NCBI RefSeq assembly: GCF_006345805.1
Contig: NC_042998.1
Coordinates: 127,472,001-127,536,000, forward strand
Direction: 5' to 3'
Length of the DNA: 64,000 nucleotides
DNA from: Octopus sinensis
Taxonomy: Eukaryota
The notes under the pieces are model-generated. The model was not told the DNA's origin, searched no databases, and saw only the letters and a program-made list of their open reading frames with translations. Position 1 is the first letter of the stretch, and every line of letters starts with the position of its first letter. The position numbers and the translations under genes are program-made. Positions 22,750-62,365 of this stretch are shown here, piece after piece.

Positions 22750-25560
22750 ATCTTATCAATCTTTAGCAAGAATATCATTGACAGTGTCTTCGAAGTCTCA
22801 CCCAGCTAAGCTATCATCGGACTGCAATGCATTGAGTTAATCTTGGCTTCATATAGTTTCTGTTGAGTTAAAAATGTTCTTCGGTTTTATGGAGTTAAGT
22901 GGAGTGGGAATTAGATTGTAGAGTGGGTTCTTATAGAGAGGTGTTTTGGTGAACTTTTTATTGGTTAAATTTGTGCTTATGTTATTGGTTAGAATTTATT
23001 CATCTACGTAGAACTTTGCAAACAGGTGGGATATTTAGGTGTGCCATTTTTGGTGGGTAGATATAAATGTGTACGTAGTTGTAGTTATTTTCCTTTGACA
23101 ATGTAAGAGTCAAAGGCTCAAAGTTGAGTTGAATATTTAAAACTTTTTATAATGCATCTTTTTTTTTGGGGGGGGGGGGTCATAAAAGAATGTAAGTAGG
23201 TGGTATATTTCAGTTGGTCAGTTTCTTTACTTATTGTTGTAATTTAAGGTACTTGCTATATTGTTTTGAAATTTACGTTTTATTAGTTGGGCATGTCATG
23301 ACGTTCTAATATAGAAAATTTTTAATTTGTGCTTTGATGCTCCCAATAGGACGCGGGTAGTTGTAAAGGCTGTTTGTCTGTATGTTTCTCTTTAGGGGTT
23401 CAATGTTCCATAAGCAATTTGATTAATATGTAGAAATTTAAACCTTCAGTTTTATGGCGGTAATTACCACTCCACTCAAACCTACATAAGCAAGGAAGAT
23501 TTTAACGCAACACAGACTATATAAAGTCAAGATTGATTGTAATGCATCGTAGTCCGACGATGACTTAACCGGCTGAAACTTCAAACTTGCTATCCATAGT
23601 TTTCTTGTGTAATAATAATGAATGCATATATCCATATATATATTTGTACCATTGTGTGTTTGTGTGAGTGTCCATTTATATATAGCACTGTGTGCACCTA
23701 AGTTCAAAACAATGCAGAACAAATAGTCCTCGAATACCAAAGGTTGATAAAACATGCTGCTTTATTGAAACTTTAAAAGTTCACAAACTATGAGTGTTTA
23801 TCATGTGTTTGTACTTGGAAATTCTTCAGTAAATATCGATAGAAGTGTTTTCCCCCAATTCACGAATTTCGATCTCTGAAAAGGCTGTAAGGGAATATTA
23901 TCCTTTCCCGAAAGACAAGTGTCACACCTGTGGCAATTAATTTGAGAAGGTGAATGTTCTATAATTGACCAAATGAGTTCATGATTGTTATTCATATCAT
24001 CCTTTGAATTCCAGATATATTTCGAGAGTGAAGTTATGAATCAGCTTTCTGTCCATTTGAATATATACATAAGTTCCGAGAATAATTTCGAATGGATTTT
24101 CAGTAAGGCCTATCTTTCATTTTAGTTATTTACATCAGCGTTCTTACAACGATAATTTAATACTTTAGGCTAAGACACGCCGTTGAGATAGCAAATAGTA
24201 GGGTTGTTGATATTACAAAGAGGAATAGAAATTTGCGTGCGCACCAGAAAATTTACTTCCACATACCAGAGATAAAAAAAGCAATATTTTTGTTGTAACT
24301 TTAATACAAATGCCCTGCATTAACGATGTTTCTAGCAAAAATATTATGGCTCTGGTGTACTTGAAATGTTGCCAGATATTTAAAAGCAATAACCTTCGGT
24401 TACACATGAACACAAAAACTTCATCAGAAATAAATAATACGTCACAAGTAGAGAATGAGCTCTCAGTTAAAAGCTAAACAGTTTTGTTGGGAATCCAGTA
24501 AAATATAATCTTGAATGATTGTGTGTACAAATGTGTATATGGGCGTAAGATCATTGAGAATTGATTTATAATTATAAACACATACGTGCCAGCATATATA
24601 TATATTTATATACTGGACATACTAACGTATGCGCACTCATCAATATGCTATTCTATTTAGACTAGTGAAGCGTGTGTACTTGATAAGGTTCTATGCTTTG
24701 TAGTGTTACAGATGTTGTGCTTATAAAGTTTTCCTGAATGGTTTTACCGAGAGTTTGAAGAATTAATTAATTTTTCTGGAAGGTTTTAAAATATCTTCTT
24801 TGTGTGTTTAGTTAGAAATTTGTTGATTTGTTAACGATGAAATATTATGAAACTTTAGTATGGCTACAGTAATGTAATGGGATGGAAATGCCGCTGAAAT
24901 GACTTACTAATATTATGAGCATTAAATGTCGTCTGCAGTTTCATACTTTTGAGCTGTTTATTTTCCTTTGTACCAAAATGTAAATTTAGGATTTAAATAC
25001 TTACAAATGAAGCTGACCTCACATTCTCTGATGCATGTTTTGGAGACATCTATTTCGCCTCTATCTTGCTTAAATTTTGTCAGGAAGAAAATTCCTTATG
25101 CTAGAAGTTGCAGTTATCTAGACAGGATAGACGATGGAAGCCATTGGCAATATGTGATTCATATTCAGACTAAATATTTAATTTAAACAGAAGGAATTAT
25201 AGTGACTGTTTCAGTTACACTAGCTGGAGGCGATTAAGCTTTGTCGATAAATTTAATCTGTTCTCGAAACATTCTTTTCGCACGCGCTTTGTTGCTGTAA
25301 TATTCAGCTCTTGCAAATATCTTTTTCTTGAAGAGGCAAAAGAGAATCTTGTACAAATGCTGCTGATGGGTTTATTAAAAACTTGTGAAAGATGTATATT
25401 TTTAGCTCAGAGATGAGTTTCATCTTTTTTCTTCCAGTTTGGTTTATATTTACATCTGTAGTGATCTAAGGATAGGTCTAAAAAGACAATTAATTGTTAT
25501 TACCAGTGGTGTTTTCCAATTTATTTAATGCTTTGTTTCTCCTTATTCTATTTAGTTGTA
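22750..25560 (-). mobile_element. Highly decayed Penelope-like element remains
   Basis: About 23790-24210 minus: NNPTICYLNG..KVLNYRC..IGLTENPF..TSLSKYIWNSKDD..ELIWSII..CDTCLS (GIY-YIG region of Penelope-group PLEs); flanks less certain. Confidence 0.55.
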
Positions 25561-33574: not shown

Positions 33575-34460
33575 AGGTGAGAGAGTTGGTATGTGAAAGT
33601 ACGTGGTTGGGTGTATAAAAAAATTAAGAAAGTGAAAAAATTACAGAAGGCTTGTGTTATATGGTTAAAGAATATATTTAAGTCGTTATGTTAGAAAAAT
33701 GTTATAAAATTTTGTGTATAGTGTCATAGTTTTTGGAGAAAAAACCGCTTTCGTATTTTCTTTTCAAATTTCTCAAATTTCTTTACCAACATCGTGTCAT
33801 GTCTTCGCTATGTTGGGAAATATGGAGTTCCAGGCAGGGGAAGGTAATCAGGGAATTTTTTCCGGTATAAGGGAGATAATCAAACATGTTGGGAATGACT
33901 AATTAAACACTATTTAACTTAGAAGGAATAGAATGTGGTTGGGTTTTGCTTTATATTTTTTCAATGAAGTGAGTTTCCTTATTTAAAAATGTTACAAATG
34001 GTTACGTTTTGGCTTATATATTTCAATGAAGAAGGTTTCCCTGTTTAATCTAACTTGTGTTGGCGTTCCAATAGCTCATTAATAAAATGGAAAGATTATA
34101 AGTTGTGGTAGTAGTTGCTTTGCGCATTTCTCAATATGTTCACTAAAGAGTATCATTCTGTATTCTGGGAATGCAATCTGTTGTCAATGCAGAGTGCATA
34201 TGCGTCTGAGCGACAATCTTGTGGGCCCTATGTAGTTTTGGTGGAAGCCCGAGCATCTTATGACATAAATTAGGTTTTCTGAAGCACAAGTAAAACTAGA
34301 TTTTATTTTGAATTTTTGTCCCCCATTGATCCTTCTAGAAGGTTTGGACATGTTGCGCAATTTGGTCTGCCACATTTTTTTACTTTTGCATCCGTTATTT
34401 CAGAAAATGATTTTGCCTTTGTGAGGATCGTCTTTAGTGATTTCGGTTGTTTGTAGCTTT
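33575..34460 (-). mobile_element. Penelope-like element (Neptune-type) 3' fragment with GIY-YIG remnant
   Basis: ORF 34184-34375 KFKIKSSFTCASENLIYVIRCSGFHQNYIGPTRLSLRRICTLH (LIY...YIG motif), then *QQIAFPEYRMILFSEHIEKCAK. Confidence 0.75.
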
Positions 34461-34518
34461 ATATATATATGTGTGTGTGTGTATATATATATATGTATAT
34501 ATGTATATATTATGTATG

Positions 34519-34578
<60 letters not shown>

Positions 34579-34808
34579 TATATATTATATATATATATTA
34601 TGTGAAATAGAAAGATGAATAATCTTGTTGTAGATTAATCAAAAGTTAACCGATACCTTAGTAGCAAAAATCACAGCAGTAAACAGCACGGTTGGAGGTA
34701 CAACCATCTGGCGTTGCAACCGTGCGTTGGTGCGGATAATTGAAATTAAAACATTATTGGTGAATTGAGGAAATGGAGCTGAACGCAGATTGAACAGAAA
34801 TCGTTTTA

Positions 34809-34897
34809 TTTCATTCTACACGTGTTTCGAAAGGCACAAATTACCAAAATCCGATTGAATAATGGGACCATATTGTGTCTTTCTCTTCAGGAAGAAA
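34809..34897 (-). ncRNA. Minimal type I hammerhead ribozyme (left arm)
   Basis: Reverse complement of 39090-39178. Confidence 0.8.
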
Positions 34898-35481
34898 AAA
34901 GGAAATCCGTTAGAGAAACAAAAACAGAACAGAGGCGGAGCAAAAACCAAATCGAACTATGCTCCTAAGAGCCCATGGCGAAACTGTTTATCAGTGTTTG
35001 CTGAGAACCGGTGGCTGAAGAATTCTACAGGTCAGGCATCGGTCAATCATGTGGGTGAGGGTGTATAGATGTTCTTAGTGACCGAGAATAAAGTTCTGAC
35101 TATTTAAGGAATATTGGATGTTTTATAAGGGGCGAGAAAAAATCTACTTAGAGACGTGTGTGTGTGTGTATACTGTTCTATATATGTGTGTGTTGGCGTA
35201 GGGGTAGAGAACACTTTTTGTGTACGTGTGTGCGTTTGATCGTTCGGCTGTCAGTGGCTACTGCCGTGATAACCGTTGGGTGGCAGAAAGAAAAAAATAT
35301 ATATATATATTATGTTTTATGTGTATGTGTGTTCATCTGAGCCTGCCTTGTCAAGGAAACCCCCCGCTGTGAAAAAACCAAGCCCCGTTTGTCTTACAGG
35401 AGTAATTCCCCTTGCAGTGGATAATCGTAGATATCTAAAGGCTATTTCAGAATTTGTTACCAAGGGCTATGGGTGCCGGTA

Positions 35482-36995
35482 TTATTTATAAACGCTATTT
35501 AAAAGCCAGATAAGTGTAACGCCGCCAATGGGGCATCGAAAAGCCGACTGTAAGAGCCCGTTTACCATCCGGCCTCTGGCAAACAAAATATGGAAGAGTT
35601 CGGAGACACAAAGGTTACACTGTCTTCTGCCCCTATCAAATGGGAGGGCCACCGACAAAATTGACCATTCCAGCCTGTAGCTTAAGTTCGTATCCTTCAG
35701 TCGCCATATTAGCTTACTGAGTCCCGTGGTCTGGCGCTTGTTCACGTCCCGAAAAGTTGCGTAATGATTGGAGACACGCAAAGACAATCTTGAGGATGAT
35801 GCCCCTACATAAGTGAAGACATCTGAGTCCGTGTAAACCTTGCATTGGTAGACGGCGTTTTTGATCTTGGAGTTCGCCGACGTAAATCTTAATCTGCTAG
35901 GATTAGTTTCTGAAATTAGAACTGCGTTCCTGTCACTATATTCGTTCCGAGACCTGCAGCCGCTTACTACTCTATTTTCCACTACGTCACTATTAACTAT
36001 AGGAATAACCCCTGATTCTCCACTATCTATCAGAGTACTGTCATTGCTAGTGCCCGTGGTGCTGCTATTGCGGGAAATGATGCTGGGGTTGCTATTGGGG
36101 CTCTCTACCCTACTCCCATTGTTACCGTCAACCACAACACCCCTATTTATAACTATACCCCTAGTGGGTACTCCCTGGCTGGAGCTGAGATTATGTGTCA
36201 CTGTACTGGCTCTCATATCATTATTACTACTATAATTATTCCTACTGAGCATTAAACCGGGAGCGGAAGAGGCTGTGCCTCCGGAAAAAGGTGATAGGGT
36301 CTTAGTAAGTAGCCTATTATTATGGGAGGCGATTATCTGGGCGAGGTTTTTAGTGTTGGAGAAAGCTATCCTAACTTTATGTGAGTTAACCGTGGAGTAA
36401 TATTTGGAATTTCTGGGGAAGTTATTGGCGATGGCTTGTCTAAACAAGAGGGGGAGGTTAGTTCTAATCTGCTTACCAAAGGGGATTACAAACCATATAT
36501 GCTTATTCCTATCAGTGTGATGGGTCGGGACGCTAGCTCTCGCACTCTGGTGGGTGATTCTCGGATAAATAACGGGTCTTGGGTTAGTGTAAGACCTCCC
36601 GGACCGATAATTATCCTTGTTCGCTAAATTAAATGCTGGAGCGACTACCCCGGCATCCGCCGCGCTCCCGTCCTTACTTAAAATGTTAATGTTATTATAT
36701 ACGGCCCTATCCTGATGACCGAATGATGCATCGGAAGGGCCGGATCAATATAAATTACCTTCTGCCTATAACCGGCCTTGGACAGTGCGGCGTTATAAAA
36801 TTCCGCTTTCTGCATAAAAATATCGGCACTGGCGGACAAGCCAGACAATCTTAGAGAGATGTTTTTAACCAAATTGTCTGTTACGGTTTTGGCATGATTT
36901 GAGAAGACACTGACATACTTCAAATTAGTGGAAGGCTTATGGTAAGGGCAGTATGAGTCGCTATTAAGGTTAAGTGTAACGTCTAGGAAATTAGC
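35482..36995 (-). pseudogene. PLE RT-thumb plus GIY-YIG endonuclease coding region, left arm (5'-truncated, 2 frameshifts)
   Basis: ORFs 36678-36923 and 35482-36447. Confidence 0.88.
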
Positions 36996-36997
36996 CT

Positions 36998-38492
36998 TTC
37001 CTAGACGTTACACTTAACCTTAATAGCGACTCATACTGCCCTTACCATAAGCCTTCCACTAATTTGAAGTATGTCAGTGTCTTCTCAAATCATGCCAAAA
37101 CCGTAACAGACAATTTGGTTAAAAACATCTCTCTAAGATTGTCTGGCTTGTCCGCCAGTGCCGATATTTTTATGCAGAAAGCGGAATTTTATAACGCCGC
37201 ACTGTCCAAGGCCGGTTATAGGCAGAAGGTAATTTATATTGATCCGGCCCTTCCGATGCCATCATTCGGTCATCAGGATAGGGCCGTATATAATAACATT
37301 AACATTTTAAGTAAGGACGGAGCGCGGCGGATGCCGGGGTAGTCGCTCCCGCATTTAATTTAGCGAACAAGGATAATTATCGGTCCGGGAGGTCTTACAC
37401 TAACCCAAGACCCGTTATTTATCCGAGAATCACCCACCAGAGTGCGAGAGCTAGCGTCCCGACCCATCACACTGATAGGAATAAGCATATATGGTTTGTA
37501 ATCCCCTTTGGTAAGCAGATTAGAACTAACCTCCCCCTCTTGTTTAGACAAGCCATCGCCAATAACTTCCCCAGAAATTCCAAATATTACTCCACGGTTA
37601 ACTCACATAAAGTTAGGATAGCTTTCTCCAACACTAAAAACCTCGCCCAGATAATCGCCTCCCATAATAATAGGCTACTTACTAAGACCCTATCACCTTT
37701 TTCCGGAGGCACAGCCTCTTCCGCTCCCGGTTTAATGCTCAGTAGGAATAATTATAGTAGTAATAATGATATGAGAGCCAGTACAGTGACACATAATCTC
37801 AGCTCCAGCCAGGGAGTACCCACTAGGGGTATAGTTATAAATAGGGGTGTTGTGGTTGACGGTAACAATGGGAGTAGGGTAGAGAGCCCCAATAGCAACC
37901 CCAGCATCATTTCCCGCAATAGCAGCACCACGGGCACTAGCAATGACAGTACTCTGATAGATAGTGGAGAATCAGGGGTTATCCTATAGTTAATAGTGAC
38001 GTAGTGGAAAATAGAGTAGTTAGCGGCTGCAGGTCTCGGAACGAATATAGTGACAGGAACGCAGTTCTAATTTCAGAAACTAATCCTAGCAGATTAAGAT
38101 TTACGTCGGCGAACTCCAAGATCAAAAACGCCGTCTACCAATGCAAGGTTTACACGGACTCAGATGTCTTCACTTATGTAGGGGCATCATCCTCAAGATT
38201 GTCTTTGCGTGTCTCCAATCATTACGCAACTTTTCGGGACGTGAACAAGCGCCAGACCACGGGACTCAGTAAGCTAATATGGCGACTGAAGGATACGAAC
38301 TTAAGCTACAGGCTGGAATGGTCAATTTTGTCGGTGGCCCTCCCATTTGATAGGGGCAGAAGACAGTGTAACCTTTGTGTCTCCGAACTCTTCCATATTT
38401 TGTTTGCCAGAGGCCGGATGGTAAACGGGCTCTTACAGTCGGCTTTTCGATGCCCCCATTGGCGGCGTTACACTTATCTGGCTTTTAAATAG
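36998..38492 (+). pseudogene. PLE RT-thumb plus GIY-YIG endonuclease coding region, right arm (5'-truncated, 2 frameshifts)
   Basis: FLDVTLNLN.. in frame with ORF 37064-37342, then ORFs 37540-37989 and 38004-38492. Confidence 0.88.
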
Positions 38493-39089
38493 CGTTTATA
38501 AATAATACCGGCACCCATAGCCCTTGGTAACAAATTCTGAAATAGCCTTTAGATATCTACGATTATCCACTGCAAGGGGAATTACTCCTGTAAGACAAAC
38601 GGGGCTTGGTTTTTTCACAGCGGGGGGTTTCCTTGACAAGGCAGGCTCAGATGAACACACACACACATAAAACATAATATATATATATATTTTTTTCTTT
38701 CTGCCACCCAACGGTTATCACGGCAGTAGCCACTGACAGCCGAACGATCAAACGCACACACGTACACAAAAAGTGTTTTCTACCCCTACGCCAACACACA
38801 CATATATAGAACAGTATACACACACACACACGTCTCTAAGTAGATTTTTTCTCGCCCCTTATAAAACATCCAATATTCCTTAAATAGTCAGAACTTTATT
38901 CTCGGTCACTAAGAACATCTATACACCCTCACCCACATGATTGACCGATGCCTGACCTGTAGAATTCTTCAGCCACCGGTTCTCAGCAAACACTGATAAA
39001 CAGTTTCGCCATGGGCTCTTAGGAGCATAGTTCGATTTGGTTTTTGCTCCGCCTCTGTTCTGTTTTTGTTTCTCTAACGGATTTCCTTT

Positions 39090-39178
39090 TTTCTTCCTGA
39101 AGAGAAAGACACAATATGGTCCCATTATTCAATCGGATTTTGGTAATTTGTGCCTTTCGAAACACGTGTAGAATGAAA
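39090..39178 (+). ncRNA. Minimal type I hammerhead ribozyme (right arm)
   Basis: Stem I tttcttc, core CTGAAGA (39097-39103), stem II gaaagacacaa/ttgtgcctttc, GAAA (39159-39162), C-ACGT-G palindromic mini stem III, GTA cleavage triplet (39168-39170), stem I' gaatgaaa. Confidence 0.82.
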
Positions 39179-39235
39179 TAAAACGATTTCTGTTCAATCT
39201 GCGTTCAGCTCCATTTCCTCAATTCACCAATAATG

Positions 39236-39270
<35 letters not shown>

Positions 39271-39607: not shown

Positions 39608-40662
39608 CACTGCTATTCATAGTGGCCCTTTCAGACATGCCCTCAGTTGCTAAGATGGACACCCTTGCTAGCTATGCAGATGACACAAAAGTCTCCCACA
39701 CAATACAAAACCCTGGAAATATTTCACATCTTCAACGGCAGTTGGATACAATATACAGGTGGGCTGAGAACAACAACATGCAGTTTAATGCAGGGACGTT
39801 CCAGACCCTGCATGTCGTTTACAAAGGTAAACGACAGGCAGACCGGATTCACTGGCCCGGGAAGAATTGTAATTCCTGAGTCAAAATCAGTGCGTGTCCT
39901 GGGCATTGACATGAGCAATGATGCATCTTTCCAAGTGCATATTGCCAATTTGGTAATAAAATGCAGACGGCTAGCTGTATGGATTCTCCGAACTTTCAGA
40001 GGAGGAGAGAAGGAGACACTGATGGTCCTTTGGAAAACATTCGTCCTCAGCCACTTGGACTACTGCTCCCAACTATGGTCACCACACATTATAAAGTTAA
40101 CAGCAGAACTCGAAGCAATTCAACGAAGCTACACTAATAAGATAGACTCAATGCAACATTTCAGCTACTGGGGAAGACTGAAAGTATTAAAACTCTTCTC
40201 CCTGGAGCGAAGGCGAGAGAGATATGCAGTGATATACATTTGGAAAATCTTGGAAGGTCTTGTCCCAAACTTTGGCATTCAAACTTACCCCAACAGCAGA
40301 ACGGAGCCCCACTGCATGGTGCCAAAGATCCCAACATCACCATCAAAATACAGGACCAGATACTGCAGCAGCTTGGGTTTCAGAGGACCACAGCTCTTTA
40401 ATATCCTTCCTAAATCCCTGAGAGATCTGCATGGTGTGGATGTGGGTTTCTTTAAAACTAAACTGGATCCCTTCTTGTCAGGGCTCCTAGATGAACCTAC
40501 CTGTCGGCAGGAAACACAGATGCGGGCAGCGGCATCGAACTCTCTTGTTAATCACATGCCACGTATCAGAGGTGGTTTCACATACTAGTGTAACTCATTC
40601 AACCGTAGTGCCCCAGCATGGCCGCAGCCTTCGGGCTGAAACATTTTAAGGAATTAAGGATT
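39608..40662 (+). mobile_element. 5'-truncated CR1/L2-group LINE (RT C-terminal half plus 3' tail)
   Basis: LLFIVALSDMP..SYADDTK..WAENNNMQFN (ORF 39622-39879), frameshift near 39830 to ..LGIDMSNDASF..HLDYCSQLWSPH..LEAIQR..SLERRRERY (ORF 39647-40588); short 3' UTR with stem-loop and ttaagga repeats. Confidence 0.9.
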
Positions 40663-47834: not shown

Positions 47835-47917
<83 letters not shown>

Positions 47918-47920
<3 letters not shown>

Positions 47921-48187
47921 CAGTAAAACAATATGTGACAATTATTCAATAGCCAAGATAAAACTCCTCGGATGCCGAAGTAGAAAACCACAACACCATC
48001 TCTTCGGTTATCTGGCCGTATAACCGAAGAGATGGTGTTGTGGTTTTCTACTTCGGCGTCCGGAACTCAGAGTTTTATCTTGGCTATTGAATAATTGTCA
48101 CATATTATTTTACAGATAAATTTCCTCTATTTACATAATATTGAGGTCTCTTTCTTTCTTTCTTTTGTTATCTTACCGTTTTTACCA

Positions 48188-48222
<35 letters not shown>

Positions 48223-48492
48223 GTATATCAGTAAAACAATATGTGACAATTATTCAATAGCCAAGATAAAACTCCTCGGATGCCGAAGTAGAAAACCACA
48301 ACACCATCTCTTCGGTTATCTGGCCGTATAACCGAAGAGATGGTGTTGTGGTTTTCTACTTCGGCGTCCGGAACTCAGAGTTTTATCTTGGCTATTGAAT
48401 AATTGTCACATATTATTTTACAGATAAATTTCCTCTATTTACATAATATTGAGGTCTCTTTCTTTCTTTCTTTTGTTATCTTACCGTTTTTA

Positions 48493-48496
<4 letters not shown>
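47918..48496. repeat. Two tandem 308-bp units, each a ~95-bp-arm hairpin (8-nt loop ctggccgt) plus a 70-bp one-sided tail, within (TA)n
   Basis: Hairpins 47918-48118 and 48226-48426; tails end at 48188 and 48496. Confidence 0.92.
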
Positions 48497-49171: not shown

Positions 49172-49202
<31 letters not shown>

Positions 49203-49410
49203 CTGTGTCTGTGTTTACCTCCACTATTGATTGACAACCGATGATGGTGTGTTACGTCCCCGTAACTTAGCGGTTCGGCAAAAGAGACTGATAGGATATG
49301 TACTAGGCTTACAAAGAATAATTCCTGGGGTCAATTTATTCGAGTAAAAAGGCGGTGCTCCAGCAGGGCCACAGTCAAATGGCTGAAACAAATTAAAGAA
49401 TAAAAGAATA
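49018..49410 (+). mobile_element. SINE family A, full length
   Basis: gcaggagtggctgtatggtaag..gggttcagtcccactgcgtgataccttgggcaag..ggcggtgctccagcagggccacagtcaaatggctgaaac. Confidence 0.9.
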
Positions 49411-49877
49411 TATATATGTAAATTTTTATAAAAGTTTGAGAGCCACTGTGAAGTCTTTGTCTACTAATCAGGTGATCTATAGAGGTAGAAAGCTAGACGT
49501 ATGTGTGTGTGTGTGCATATATGTGTGTGTGTGTGTGTGTGGTGTGTGTGTGTGTGAGCGCGTCTGTGTCTGTGTTTACCTCCACTATTGATTGACAACC
49601 GATGATGGTGTGTTACGTCCCCGTAACTTAGCGGTTCGGCAAAAGAGACTGATAGGATATGTACTAGGCTTACAAAGAATAATTCCTGGGGTCAATTTAT
49701 TCGAGTAAAAAGGCGGTGCTCCAGCAGGGCCACAGTCAAATGGCTGAAACAAATTAAAGAATAAAAGAATATATATATGTAAATTTTTATAAAAGTTTGA
49801 GAGCCACTGTGAAGTCTTTGTCTACTAATCAGGTGATCTATAGAGGTAGAAAGCTAGACGTATGTGTGTGTGTGTGC

Positions 49878-49918
<41 letters not shown>
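49197..49918. repeat. 361-bp tandem duplication (SINE 3' half plus flank) bounded by (TG)n
   Basis: 49201 onward is identical to 49562 onward outside the microsatellites. Confidence 0.92.
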
Positions 49919-50044: not shown

Positions 50045-51220
50045 AAGGCTCCATCTTTGAGATTTTGTTAGCACAAACAAATTCACATCTGGAACTTGAG
50101 AAAAGTCTTCCATATTTTTACTGTTCCACTCAGAGACTTTACTTGTAATGAACGAATTAGCCGGTCGATTTCTCTTTCTGAAAATCCCAGTTAATCCAGA
50201 TTCTCATTTAAGCATTTACTAACAAAACCTAGTGCTCCAATTATTATTGGTCTGAATATGAATTCATAGTTTGGATATAGAAGCTGGAGGTTTTGAGGCA
50301 GTTGTCCATAAATATCTCTTTCTCTTTGATTTTCAACGAGATATTTATAACTGCAGGGCAGATGACCTCTATGCTGGTACATACATACCTTTGCCCCACT
50401 TTCACAAACATCAGTATGTGGCCTGTTATGTTTACATATGACAGAAGTTATGATGTGAATATTCCACCAATATTCTTTGAGTTGGTGTTTATGAATGCAT
50501 TCCATAACAAAGGGGTATTCTAAGTTTATCTCAGGACAGACTTTTTTGCGTATCGCATTGTAAATTGTTTTACCGACAATATCATGACGCATAAGGAGAT
50601 AGTACCGTGACATTTTAGGACCGCTGCTAATCACATACGTGATGTCTTCCACAGAAACATGACATATCCTACACATGCGGTTGTATCTTGGGGTTACAAG
50701 AGCATCACTGTCTCTCTTGTTGACCAGGTACTTTGTGCCAACCTCTTGTTCCTGGATTGCAAACGCATAGCCTTGAAAATATGATGTGAGGTAGTGGTCT
50801 TGTGTCCAAGAGAGGCTGCGCTTCGTGTCAGTTCTACTGTCTTATTCAAGCTTCCGGGCAATATTCCCATGCAAAGTCTTTTTTTTTTGTATGCTGAGTG
50901 CTTTCCATCTAGGTCTTCTCTGAGGTAAGAGAGCCCAGCTGTATAGGAGATCATCAGGAAGAGAGTGCTTCTTGAGGAGCTCACTACCAGCTCGTACAAT
51001 GTTGCTCACTTCACTTTTCAGCACTTCATTTATATAATTACTTTTGCTGTGGTTGTTCAGCAGATGCTACCTGAGTGATACCATACTGTATTCGAAGGCC
51101 GTCTGCATTGATCTCAGGTTCCTACCACCTTCATTTCTTCTTAGGCAGAGACTCCCAACATCACTGTTTCTGCGGACGTTCACACTTGTTGTCAGGATTT
51201 TGTAGTTTTTGATATCTATG
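50045..51220 (-). mobile_element. Decayed Dong/R4-clade (RLE) retrotransposon 3' portion
   Basis: CRICHVSVEDITYVISSG..RHD..YWWN..CKHNRP..IIIGALG..SLSGTVKIWKTFLKFQM*. Confidence 0.8.
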
Positions 51221-58390: not shown

Positions 58391-61300
58391 TTTTTTTTTC
58401 TTCTTTCAAATTTGCTTCCATTTCTTGCCGAGTGTCTTCCCGACTCCTAGGGCAAAGAAACTCATAGTATACATTGGTAGGCCATTAAACCAAACTCAAT
58501 CGTTCGTTCATTTTTTTTTTTTTTTTTAAGTTAAATTAAAATACATGAGCAGCAACAATTCTCACATCGACAATGCTCTTCTCAATACGTGTGATGTACC
58601 AGTTAAGACAATCTTTTGCACTTCTTGCAGGGATGGTAAGCCAGGGATCATTCTCATATAATTTTCGGTTCCCTTCTTGATCATTCCTAGTGCTCCTACG
58701 ATCACTGGTATTGTAACCGCCTTGAGATGCCACATTTTCTCAATTTCAATTAGTAGGTCTTTATATTTTCTGAGCTTGTCAAACTCTTTCGCTGAGATAT
58801 TATGATCACAGGGGATGCTCATGTCGATCAATAAGCAAACTTTATTGTTTTGGTCTTTCACAACAATATCTGGTTTATTGGCCTTGATGGTTCGGTCTGT
58901 ATGTACTGGAAAGTCCCACAGAATGGTTACATTTTCTCCTTCAGTTACAGCCTCAGGGTGGTGATTATACCACTTGTCGGCAGTTTTGATATTGTAATGC
59001 CGACTTATTAGCCAGTGTAGATATTGGCCAACTCTGTCATGTCTTAATTTATACTCCACTGGAGCTAAGACTTTACATCCAGAGATTAGGTGGTCCACTG
59101 TTTCAATCATGTCGTTGCAGAATCGGCATTTTGGGTCTGCTCCATTTTTCATCACATTGGCCTGGTAGTTCCGGGTTAATAGGCTTTGATCTTGAGCAGC
59201 CAGGATGAAACCTTCACTCTCTGCTTTTAGCCCTGAGCTCCGTAGCCACTGATGGGTTTGCTTCTGGTCAACATCAGCTTGTTTGCTGCGGGTCACATAT
59301 TCGCCGTGCAGAGGTTTCTCCTCCCACCTATCAGCCAATTGCTCGTGCGCTTTTTTCGTTACCATTATTTTCACCTTCTTTGCAACAATAATTGCCGTAC
59401 TTCCCTCGGGTTGTTCTGTTTGGGTATCCTGCACGAGATCAATAGCAAATTTTTTGCTTTCCTTTATAATAGAATGAAGCTTCTTTCGTCTCTCGGGATT
59501 TTCCACGAGCTTTAGCATCCAGTCATTCGATATTTCGAGATATTTGGCCAGTCCAATTGTGGTTGTTTTGTAAGCTAGTTCAAATTGGATCAGGCCTCGA
59601 CCTCCTTGGGCTCTGGGAAGGTAAAGGCGATCTACGTCTGCCTTTGGGTGGTGCATCCTATTACAACTCAGCAGCTTGCGTATTTTCCTATCTATATTCT
59701 TTACTTCACTCATATTCCAGTTCAACACATTGTAGCTATAAGTAACAACTGGAACTTCTTAGGAATTTATATCTAACACCTTGTTACGTGCATTTTGTTC
59801 AGATTTCAGGACTGCACGAACTCTCCTATAACATTCCTTCCTGATCTTCTCTTTCATGCTTGCATGCTGAATACCAGAGCCTTCATTTATCCCTAAATAT
59901 TTGTATGTTTGTTCTTGCTCAAGCTCTCTTATGACTGTGTCAACATCTAACACGACTGAATTTGTGGTCTTCACTTTCCCTTTCTAGAAAGTGGCCTTGG
60001 CACACTTCTCAAGTCCAAACTCCATCCCGATGTCATCGCTGAATGCTTTCACAGTGCACAATAGGCCTTCAAGTTCATTATTGTCTTTACCATAAAGTTT
60101 TAAGTCATCCATATAAAATAGATGGCTTATTTTTTTATTGGCAATTTTATACCCATACCCTGTTCTGTTTAATTCACTTGTAAGGGGTATTAGGGCTATG
60201 CAGAATATTAAAGGTGAAAGTGAGTCACCTTGAAAAATTCCACAGTTGATGTTTATATTTTCTGAGGCAAGTACTCCATTAGAGTGGTATAATTGGAGAT
60301 TCGTATTCCACAACGACATATTGTGCTTCAGGAAGTTTGAAATCACAGGGGAAATTTTGAAGATGTCCAGCGATCTCAAGATCCATGGATGCGGTATACT
60401 GTCGAAGGCCTTTTTATAGTCAATCCATGCGGTGCTGAGATTTCTGCGCTTGTTGTGACAGTTCTCAAGGATCATACGATTGATTAGCAGTTGATCTTTG
60501 CATCCGTAAGAGCCTCGGCGGCACCCTTTTTGTTCAATGGGGAAAATATCGTTCTTCTCCATGAATGCATATGTTTTCTCCGCCAGGATAGATGTTAGGA
60601 TTTTATACGTGGTGGATAGACAGGTTATAGGCCGATAGTTTTTTGGAAGGTTGGTTTCGTTATTCTTTGGGAGTAGGTAAGTAATGCCACTTGCTAACCA
60701 TTCAGGTGTTTTCTTTGGGTCTCTCATAATTCCATTGAGCAGCTGAACTAGCTTACCGTGTGCGCATGGGAGCGATGCGAGCCAGAAATTCGACACCCTA
60801 TCTTTACCGGGGGATTTCCAATTATGGGCCTTCGTGAGTGCCTTTCTTAGGTCTGTTATTGTGATGTCTTCCCATGCTTGTTGTTGTAAATTTTGGTAGG
60901 ATCCTTCAGTTTGTATAATCCAGTCTGCATTTATGTTGTACGTCTTCTTGTCACTCCAAATACTTTTCCAAAAGTTTTGAACTTCTTCCATGGGAGGGGG
61001 GTCTTTAACGGTTACTTTCTCCTTCCCTATTTCTCTGTAGAATTTTTTGGCATTGGATGTGAACAGCTTATTTTGCTTGTAAAACTTGTTTCTCTTCTCA
61101 AATCTTCGTATTCTTTGGGCTTTTGCTTGGACTTTTTGTTTCAGCGTTTCTTTTATTGATATCAGTTCTTCTCTTGGTGAGGATCCAAATTTTCTCTTCA
61201 TCTTTCTTCCTGTTCTGGATCTTACATCATTTCCACATATTAGTTCATTTAATATTGATATTTCCCCTCTCATAAATTCAATCTCTTTTTCAATTTTACT

Positions 61301-62365
61301 TCTCCAGGTTTGATTTCTTCCCAGGTTTGGTTTTCTTTGTTTTTTCGGGGGCATACAGCTGGTTTCAATTGCCCTAGCAGAAGCGTAAATAATTTCATTT
61401 AACTCAGTAAAATCAGGTTTTAATTCTCGTATTATTTCATTTGTTACATAGTTGCCAATTTGGATTTGTTTTTTTTATTTTGGTTTGTATTTGAGAGTTT
61501 ATGAAGTGGTTCTCTATCATTCATACCTGTATGTCTTACAACTTCAAGTGTATTCAGGATTTTCTGCCTCATTTCTGCCATAGACTCTCTGTGTTCTTCA
61601 GCAGATGCGAGATCTTCAGTTACTGTTGTTTCTTCGTTTTCCTGGCTATCTTTAACAGGTACAATAGAATTTCTTGTATCTTCAGGCCTTTGCGTACTTT
61701 GGTCAGATGGCAGTCTTTCAATTAAGCCTCGTGGCGGGCTATACGGTTCATCTGATTCTTCATTTCCTTTGTGTCTTATATTTATGTCATTTTCCGTTGC
61801 GTGCTTGATCGCGCTTATTTCACTGTCTGTGAGTCTGTTATTTCTAAGGATATCCCTCCTCACATTTGCTAATTTGTTCTCGTCCAAATAGGGCCTACTG
61901 TCTTGATTCCGTGTTCTCCATATACTGTAAGAGTTTGCGGTGTGTCTCTCTTGAGATGGCCTACCTAATGCATAGTAATAAGCGCATATTACTTCTTTAT
62001 ACTCTTCTCGGGTCCATTTGTTCCGCTTACATTTTTCTTTCTGTGGTGGTTGTGGTGGTGAACTTGGAGGGCTCGAGTTGGGGGATTTCCCGTTCAAGTG
62101 ACCATCCATGTCCGTTTTCGGAGAAGCGTTTGTGCCAGTTGATGACTTTTCGGTCCCAGGCTGGCTCTTCCCTGGGGGACGCGCTTCCAGATTAACCATA
62201 GGACAAGCGATTTGGTATACTGATTTAGTTTTCCTTTTAGTTTCCAAAAACATTTTGGTGCTACGATAATGTTATCATTTTTTAGCTTTGGTTGGCTCGT
62301 GGGGAGACGGCCATCATTGCTGTTACAATTATAATCGTACCATTATAGCAGCCGTAGTCGGCTTA
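58390..62365 (-). mobile_element. Near full-length Dong/R4-clade non-LTR retrotransposon
   Basis: Single long broken ORF, short 3' UTR ending in an A-run then (TAA)n; 5' end next to a TAA/TGA repeat. Confidence 0.93.
58562..62253 (-). pseudogene. R4/Dong polyprotein: N-terminal KWTREE motif, reverse transcriptase, CCHC knuckle, restriction-like endonuclease
   Basis: KSPGKD, YRPITCL, WIDYKKAFDS, GIFQGDSLSP, FYMDDLK, CRFC..HLISGC, RHD, KPDIV..LID..KLRKYKDL; frameshift in a T-run near 61470, in-frame stops at 59984 and 59759. Confidence 0.92.

What the first reader, a model, noticed from the sequence alone, without database searches (positions are those of the whole stretch)
34600..39269. 4.5-kb snap-back Penelope palindrome that records a fold-back reverse-transcription event
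Seen: two 2243-bp inverted arms joined head-to-head by ttagcc, with (TA)n on both sides. The loop is itself element sequence, since on the minus strand it continues the RT frame as A-N-F-L-D-V. Only the left copy has the last 148 nt (34600-34747). Established: PLEs encode a telomerase-related RT and a GIY-YIG endonuclease and can carry inverted terminal repeats. Inference: cDNA was primed in the left TA tract, ran ~2.4 kb, snapped back on a gaaa/tttc microhomology, copied itself for 2.24 kb and joined the right TA tract. A whole-element palindrome with essentially no spacer is extreme, and would be a cruciform/fragile site and a template for a 2.2-kb RNA hairpin.
Basis: partly seen in the sequence, partly recalled or inferred. 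Interest (0 to 1): 0.82.

Follow-up and report, generated by a model that had tools for sequence, protein, structure and literature searches.

The report
Head-to-head Penelope-like retroelement palindrome
A truncated Penelope-like jumping gene sits in a TA microsatellite as two near-identical 2.2-kb copies joined head to head by six bases, likely made when its fresh DNA copy folded back and copied itself; this layout is already described for such elements, so it is a large, tidy example of a known pattern.

Summary
The palindrome is in the sequence as described: 2243-bp arms (4 substitutions, 4 one-base indels), a ttagcc loop, (TA)n flanks and a 148-nt one-sided tail. It is not a whole element. 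It is the 3' part of a high-copy, likely octopus, Penelope-like element closest to the Hydra clade: RT motif 7, thumb, N/S-rich linker, GIY-YIG and a hammerhead motif, with about 390 N-terminal residues missing. Head-to-head inverted copies, junction palindromes, one-sided tails, (TA)n targets and self-priming are published for PLEs. Two small palindromes of the same build lie 9 kb away. 4 of 77 Hydra-like metagenome loci carry an inverted copy at the 5' break. The scan noted 3-kb and 8-kb cases on other DNA (unchecked). The proposed gaaa/tttc microhomology is not supported: a family contig stops matching at 36998 and an 84% relative has Thr before KANFLDV, which allows 2-3 nt. cDNA snap-back remains the best mechanism (0.6). 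No read or contig across the turn was seen, so an assembly artefact is not excluded (0.13). One small oddity: this lineage lacks the Hydra zinc-finger linker yet sits in (TA)n.

The parts
34460..34598 (.). Left compound (TA)n/(TG)n tract; likely half of the target site
   Evidence: Tandem Repeats Finder, 71.5 copies of TA, 87% matches
34600..34747 (-). 148-nt one-sided 3' extension (tail) of the element
   Evidence: No mirror on the right; covered at high depth in 4 of 4 runs
34748..36990 (-). Left arm: 5'-truncated Penelope-like copy, sense on the minus strand
   Evidence: Arm alignment; ORF remnants
34817..34890 (-). Type I hammerhead ribozyme motif (CUGAAGA core, 9-bp stem II, GAAA, palindromic stem III, GUA site); activity untested
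   Evidence: One of only 2 core hits with a stem II of 4 bp or more in 64 kb, the other being its mirror; same layout as the Hydra motifs in PMC8557442 File S2; no hammerhead family among the 13 Rfam matches up to E 5
35495..35859 (-). GIY-YIG endonuclease remnant with CxxC and CxH motifs (the CxH is in frame in the right arm only)
   Evidence: Aligns with the C-terminal domain of long relatives; atlas hits named GIY-YIG at 0.96-0.97; no Pfam hit
35860..36306 (-). 149-aa N/S-rich linker (32% N+S, one Cys) in place of the CxCX5C zinc finger
   Evidence: 82 of 98 relatives tested have a CxC...C motif there
36307..36998 (-). RT motif 7 and thumb remnant beginning K-A-N-F-L-D-V; one frameshift per arm in this stretch
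   Evidence: 84% identical to P0001 over the right-arm frame
36991..36996 (.). 6-nt loop ttagcc; element sequence, and the next two bases (36997-36998) still match the family
   Evidence: (X1 record 8 ends at 36998)
36997..39239 (+). Right arm: inverted copy, sense on the plus strand, without the tail
39097..39170 (+). Mirror copy of the hammerhead motif
39240..39269 (.). Right (TA)15 tract; likely the other half of the target site

Best explanation
This is a 5'-truncated, Hydra-related Penelope-like element present as two inverted 2243-bp arms around a 6-nt loop inside a (TA)n tract, likely one real insertion in which the first-strand cDNA folded back on 2-3 bases and primed its own second strand. 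Shown: the anatomy, the family, the high copy number and that both arms come from one template. Inferred steps: (1) the GIY-YIG endonuclease of an intact family member nicked the TA tract and reverse transcription began at the distal 3' start site (34600); (2) the cDNA stopped after about 2.4 kb, at 36998 or a base later; (3) its 3' end paired with aa(a) six bases back and was extended for 2243 nt on the cDNA; (4) the new strand was joined to the right target end at the tail boundary (34748), either by end joining or, more speculatively, by annealing to a short second cDNA primed from the right end at the proximal start site; (5) host synthesis of the opposite strand opened the hairpin into a palindrome. 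The copy lacks the RT catalytic motifs and cannot move by itself.
For: Loop and two more bases are element sequence. Two independent truncations would fall within 8 nt of each other about 0.4-0.7% of the time on a uniform model. Both arms share 14 of 15 minority letters checked; five of them (35214, 35339, 35617, 36534, 36783) also differ from the closest contig, X1 record 8. The family makes head-to-head joints elsewhere: 2 opposite-strand joints among 26 X1 contigs laid, one (34684/34801) with 1 nt of shared sequence. 4 of 77 Hydra-like loci have an inverted copy at the 5' break, with spacers of about 0, 890, 1730 and 1850 nt. The same build with an 8-nt loop occurs at 47915-48495. The mirror stops at an element-internal boundary and the flanks are unrelated (one 27-nt hit in 5.4 kb against 5.4 kb). 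Literature: self-priming inferred for PLE head-to-head joints (PMC3846280); cDNA snap-back observed in R2 insertions (PMC11371274); two RT start sites bounding the tail, and nicking and extension of both strands, shown in vitro for an anole PLE (PMC11167929).
Against: No read or contig crossing the turn or either flank junction was seen (contigs only, tables cut). The native bases upstream of 36998 were never displayed; the short homology rests on where one contig's match ends and on one relative's residue. All four indels are one-base losses in homopolymer runs (chance about 0.06), which looks like long-read consensus error and shows the region is imperfectly polished. Yeast data say a 6-bp spacer is nearly as fragile as none (PMC8053094), so persistence is somewhat unexpected. 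The tail (148 nt) is longer than the 30-40 nt usually reported.
Confidence: 0.6

Rival explanations
1. Dual-end priming: both target ends primed reverse transcription on two RNAs from one source locus (one from each start site), and the two cDNA 3' ends were joined head to head.
For: An anole PLE protein nicks and extends both strands, is predicted to dimerise and starts at two sites that bound the tail (PMC11167929); this explains the one-sided tail directly. Long-spacer joints in the family and its relatives fit it as well. Shared rare letters are expected if both RNAs came from one locus.
Against: Both cDNAs must stop within 8 nt after more than 2.2 kb (0.4-0.7% if independent); short or zero loops recur.
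Confidence: 0.15
2. Assembly artefact: a fold-back long read, or a join through the repeat, doubled a single truncated copy.
For: No spanning read seen. Indels look like long-read errors. Fold-back reads make up about 0.55-0.6% of nanopore genomic reads (PMC12870357). Two other tandem duplications at 99% identity lie in the window.
Against: The mirror ends at the tail boundary and passes into a TA tract and an unrelated flank instead of copying the left flank. The layout is the one published for PLEs. A diverged small palindrome of the same build lies nearby. Fold-backs were virtually absent from the HiFi data in PMC12870357; the sequencing method of this window is not known.
Confidence: 0.13
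3. DNA-level event after insertion: an older single or long-spacer inverted insertion was turned into a tight palindrome by break repair, central deletion or arm-to-arm conversion.
For: Inverted repeats are fragile (PMC8053094); L1-made ends can form fold-backs through hairpins (PMC11702581); conversion would also give shared rare letters.
Against: A hairpin-capped break would mirror the flank too; deletion tends to lengthen, not shorten, spacers (general knowledge, recalled); the right end is an element-to-TA junction.
Confidence: 0.07
4. Self-priming on an antisense RNA template, as proposed for Adineta Penelope elements.
For: PMC3846280 argues that head-to-head polarity needs an antisense template.
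Against: First-strand cDNA is itself antisense, so no antisense transcript is needed; the outer ends look like ordinary target-primed junctions; no antisense RNA was shown here.
Confidence: 0.05

Closest known systems
Hydra clade of C-terminal EN+ Penelope-like elements (PMC8557442; Hydra-1_Obim from Octopus bimaculoides; Penelope-13_HM)
   Same: C-terminal GIY-YIG with CxxC and CxH, (TA)n target, hammerhead motif near the 3' end, relatives with RWK and DKT; Penelope-13_HM is listed with a 966-nt 5'-truncated inverted copy at its 5' end.
   Different: No CxCX5C linker (149-aa N/S-rich stretch instead); longer 3' region; hammerhead flanks and stem II differ from Hydra-1_Obim by eye; no hit for two of its protein motifs in that paper's supplement; inverted arm 2243 nt with a 6-nt loop.
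Inverted pLTR / head-to-head insertions of Adineta vaga Penelope families (PMC3846280)
   Same: Head-to-head inverted repeats, palindromes at the junction, a tail at one end, N-rich inserts between RT and EN, self-priming proposed.
   Different: Arms given there are mostly pLTR-sized (about 180-300 bp in the passages read) and palindromes 18-38 bp; tail 31 bp; here the whole truncated copy is mirrored.
cDNA snap-back 5' junctions of R2-mediated insertion (PMC11371274)
   Same: The cDNA 3' end primes synthesis on the cDNA before joining the other target end.
   Different: A non-LTR R2 protein at rDNA in human cells; lengths of the copied strand were not seen in the passages read.
Poseidon of Anolis carolinensis, PAc (PMC11167929)
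   Same: AT-rich target, hammerhead, tail between two RT start sites.
   Different: Penelope/Poseidon clade; inverted products are not treated in the parts read; tail 30-40 nt against 148 nt here.

Membership tests
EN+ Penelope-like element | RT fused to a C-terminal GIY-YIG endonuclease in one ORF | tested here: met
   RT motif 7, thumb and GIY-YIG in one frame apart from one-base indels; long relatives hold all RT motifs. Pfam found nothing in this copy and no RT or GIY-YIG family in 15 relatives.
EN+ Penelope-like element | Hammerhead motif in the terminal repeat | tested here: met
   Core and stems found by pattern in both arms; 38 of 77 related loci have a core hit; Rfam gave no hammerhead match; cleavage not tested.
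EN+ Penelope-like element | 5' truncation, adjacent inverted copy, tail at one end | tested here: met
   described in PMC8557442.
Hydra clade | RWK and DKT motifs | tested here: inconclusive
   They lie in the part missing from this copy. Relatives have them: DKT 15 and DKG 0 of 150 proteins, most being fragments; 13 of 16 proteins of 600 aa or more have DKT.
Hydra clade | CxxC and CxH around the conserved E and N of the endonuclease; no CCHH | tested here: met
   CNLC and CPH in the right-arm frame; absence of CCHH judged by eye.
Hydra clade | CxCX5C linker before the endonuclease | tested here: not met
   One Cys in 149 aa; also absent in P0002, P0003 and P0004; present in 82 of 98 relatives tested. 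So it is filed as Hydra-related, not as a plain member.
Hydra clade | Insertion into (TA)n | tested here: met
   (one site only).
Hydra clade | Placement in the clade on an RT tree with named references | not tested
   Named reference sequences were seen only in a paper supplement and were not brought into the tools.
Penelope/Poseidon clade in the strict sense | DKG motif and CCHH finger in the endonuclease | tested here: not met
   No CCHH by eye; DKG in 0 of 150 related proteins and 1 of 77 loci, DKT/S in 48 of 77 (these loci were found with Hydra-like patterns).
Snap-back junction | Inverted microhomology in the native sequence at the turn | tested here: inconclusive
   2 nt shown, 3 possible, 4 unlikely; native letters not displayed.

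The most novel reading that the evidence does not exclude
An undescribed, very abundant octopus lineage of Hydra-related PLEs has swapped its zinc-finger linker for an N/S-rich tract yet still targets (TA)n. It routinely finishes insertion by snap-back on only two bases, copies kilobases of second strand, and captures the other target end through a second cDNA started at the tail boundary. It would leave many multi-kilobase, near-zero-spacer palindromes that persist in the germ line and supply long double-stranded RNA for editing and silencing.
Probability: 0.15. Interest if true: 0.55.

Novelty: new member of a known kind. Interest (0 to 1): 0.27.

Why it matters
How PLEs make their inverted repeats is still open: PMC8557442 names it as a task for in vitro work. 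A 2.2-kb arm with a 6-nt loop is a clean case that favours snap-back over two independent cDNAs, and a high-copy family would allow loop lengths and microhomologies to be counted genome-wide. The loss of the linker finger with the (TA)n target kept is a small counter-example to the suggested link between the two. As one locus it changes nothing: the layout and the self-priming idea are in print.

Tried and rejected
Whole genome: none held, so no genome-wide count and no full-length family DNA. Runs: 20 of 24 listed hold the element, in 8 studies; no RNA holder listed on record, so nothing is said about expression. Laying four runs used 34599-37030 only and returned contigs; it could not test the flanks, showed no joint at the turn, and hid 306 loose ends, 15 substitution rows and 14370 pieces. 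I first read X1 record 8 as a second insertion broken at the same base; rejected as the less likely reading because a direct join would share 2 letters and the tool reported 0, while it reported the expected 1 for the other joint. Depth steps at the tail boundary (higher without tail in X14 and X4, flat in X2) were not used. Last-bin depth puts the end of the family match at about 36998, 37003, 36994 and 36998 in the four runs: rough agreement only. Protein searches for a full-length family ORF found none (only P0001). Cluster look-up could not be made. Metagenome scan with the family's own peptides: 0 of 284 candidates; viral contigs 0 of 10. PDB profile search: 0 hits. Rfam hits at the turn are generic hairpin matches below their thresholds. 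Folding of the tail region was not significant (z -1.64). The bacterial promoter/terminator scan is not relevant to an animal. Of 14 of 77 loci with any inverted pair, 10 were dropped before the count of 4 because the pair was not at the element's 5' break. No earlier notes on this genome or sequence.
Full report
Observation. The region 34600-39269 holds two inverted arms, 34748-36990 and 36997-39239, each 2243 bp, around ttagcc. The arms differ by 4 substitutions and 4 one-base indels. TA tracts flank the unit. The 148 nt at 34600-34747 have no mirror, and the element has no other copy in the window. The left and right flanks share nothing beyond one 27-nt hit. A scan for non-simple hairpins (perfect arm 18 bp or more, loop 30 nt or less) found 3 in 64 kb and none in three shuffles.

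What the element is. The left arm reads on the minus strand K-A-N-F-L-D-V-T-L-N-L, a thumb region, a 149-aa N/S-rich linker and a GIY-YIG domain. Pfam gave nothing for these frames. A search of 1.84 billion representatives gave 2510 relatives at E 0.001 or better. The long ones are single-ORF RT plus C-terminal GIY-YIG proteins with RWK, DKT, CxC...CP, CxxC and CxH motifs. These are the marks of the Hydra clade in PMC8557442 (section 11 read whole), whose File S1 lists an octopus member and (TA)n targets. The nearest protein, P0001, is 84% identical and is named from Octopus sinensis, so the host is likely an octopus. This copy and P0002-P0004 lack the CxCX5C linker that 82 of 98 tested relatives have, so I call it Hydra-related rather than a plain member. 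About 390 N-terminal residues, with the RT catalytic motifs, are missing. Each arm has a hammerhead motif (34890-34817 minus, 39097-39170 plus) with a small palindromic stem III like those described in PMC4209133 (passages). The family is abundant: 20 of 24 listed runs hold it and 8408, 2618, 3230 and 26 contigs were laid from four runs. PMC13282606 gives Penelope-like elements 6.83% of the O. vulgaris genome (passages and supplement search).

The two arms against the family. At 14 of 15 sites checked (sites where over 90% of run X4's depth has another letter) both arms carry the same minority letter; the 15th, 36637, is private to the left arm. Both arms therefore come from one template. At the indels the family sides with the right arm at 35529 and 36727 and shows no change from the left arm at 36004 and 36667. 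In each case the deviant arm has lost one base from a homopolymer run and its frame, which looks like long-read consensus error (chance about 0.06). If the 4 substitutions are real, the pair is about 0.25 million years old (0.07-0.64) on the calibration quoted in PMC13282606; errors or conversion would shift that.

The turn. X1 record 8, a 2918-nt contig of the same subfamily (8 other letters in 1920), matches down from 36998 and no further. P0001 reads D-N-E-L-T-K-A-N-F-L-D-V; a Thr codon before the Lys codon (36998-36996) allows aa or aaa but not gaaa. So the complement is 2 or 3 nt. Such a stem is unstable by itself (+2.4 and +1.3 kcal/mol). Caveat: the native letters were not displayed, P0001 is a different subfamily, and record 8 also has an opposite-strand joint to 49 nt of the tail end. 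I read that as a short inverted copy placed further upstream, because a direct join would share two letters and the tool reported none, but a second insertion broken at the same base is not excluded. No contig across the hairpin itself was visible, and k-mer contigs cannot cross the TA tracts, so the locus is unverified.

How common the layout is. Run X1 has a second opposite-strand joint (34684/34801), a head-to-head pair with a 117-nt spacer of element sequence. Short-read contigs collapse long palindromes, so this is likely a floor. In this window an unrelated 273-bp unit with 95-bp arms, an 8-nt loop, a one-sided extension and TA flanks occurs twice at 47915-48495. In print: PMC3846280 (passages, sections 7 and 11) reports abundant head-to-head inverted structures with junction palindromes, explains them by self-priming, and describes N-rich inserts between RT and EN. 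PMC8557442 (passages; supplement searches and part 2 of 59) describes the adjacent inverted 5'-truncated copy and one-sided tail, and lists a 966-nt inverted copy for Penelope-13_HM. Figures of these papers were not seen, and the rest of the supplements may hold more cases. Five searches found no paper on this family or on multi-kilobase PLE palindromes in cephalopods; subscription papers are mostly not covered. Earlier notes of this scan report 3-kb and 8.1-kb PLE palindromes on other genomes; these are unchecked and not independent support.

Mechanism. Best reading (0.6): target-primed reverse transcription from the left TA end, a stop near 36998, snap-back on 2-3 bases, 2243 nt of self-templated second strand, joining to the right TA end at the tail boundary, and host synthesis of the other strand. 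The tiny loop is the main argument, since two independent stops within 8 nt have a chance of 0.4-0.7%. Snap-back of cDNA is observed for R2 (PMC11371274, passages). The anole PLE nicks and extends both strands and starts at two sites that bound the tail (PMC11167929, parts 1-2 of 4), which suggests, as inference only, that the right junction is a second short priming event whose cDNA annealed to the snapped-back strand. Rivals: dual-end priming (0.15), assembly artefact (0.13; PMC12870357, passages), later DNA-level rearrangement (0.07; PMC11702581, passages) and antisense-RNA self-priming (0.05). The link to RNA editing in cephalopods in the novel case is recalled, not from a call.

Verdict. 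A likely real, young, large example of a known PLE insertion layout, from a family that seems undescribed. New member of a known kind; interest 0.27.

Noticed in passing
window 47915-48187 and 48223-48495: Two tandem copies (308-bp period, 99% alike) of a 273-bp mini-palindrome: about 95-bp arms, 8-nt loop, about 70-nt one-sided extension, in (TA)n, with a hammerhead-like motif that has two core changes by eye. Unrelated in sequence to the large element; likely a stub of another PLE family.
   Followed up: partly
window 33950-34460, minus strand: The left flank is a decayed second PLE endonuclease with a CxxC..CxxC-type finger and an NLIYVIRC...YIG core (Neptune/Nematis-like by eye), cut by the TA tract that holds the palindrome.
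   Followed up: partly
window 23870-24250, minus strand: Decayed Hydra-type endonuclease fragment of another family.
   Followed up: no
window 49172-49918: 360-bp tandem duplication at 99% identity between microsatellites; recent duplication or assembly doubling.
   Followed up: no
window 58562-62271, minus strand: Non-LTR retrotransposon with long frames: RVT_1 E 1.7e-27 and a weak zf-RVT hit; R4/Dong-like by eye (recalled label). A related fragment lies at 50191-50841.
   Followed up: no
window 39623-40588, plus strand: 321-aa frame that looks like the 3' part of a CR1/L2-type LINE (by eye, recalled label; no Pfam hit).
   Followed up: no
window 35860-36306 (and P0001-P0004): The lineage has replaced the Hydra CxCX5C linker by an N/S-rich tract yet this copy sits in (TA)n, against the suggested link between the finger and (TA)n targeting.
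   Followed up: partly
P0001: A database protein named 'myb-like protein I' is a fragment of this retroelement family, so the name is a mis-annotation.
   Followed up: yes
L064 511-556: Zero-spacer 23-bp palindrome at an internal 5' truncation point of a Hydra-like element, with no microhomology against the intact copy on the same contig; a simple snap-back needs a loop, so it may come from an opened hairpin or an end fusion.
   Followed up: partly
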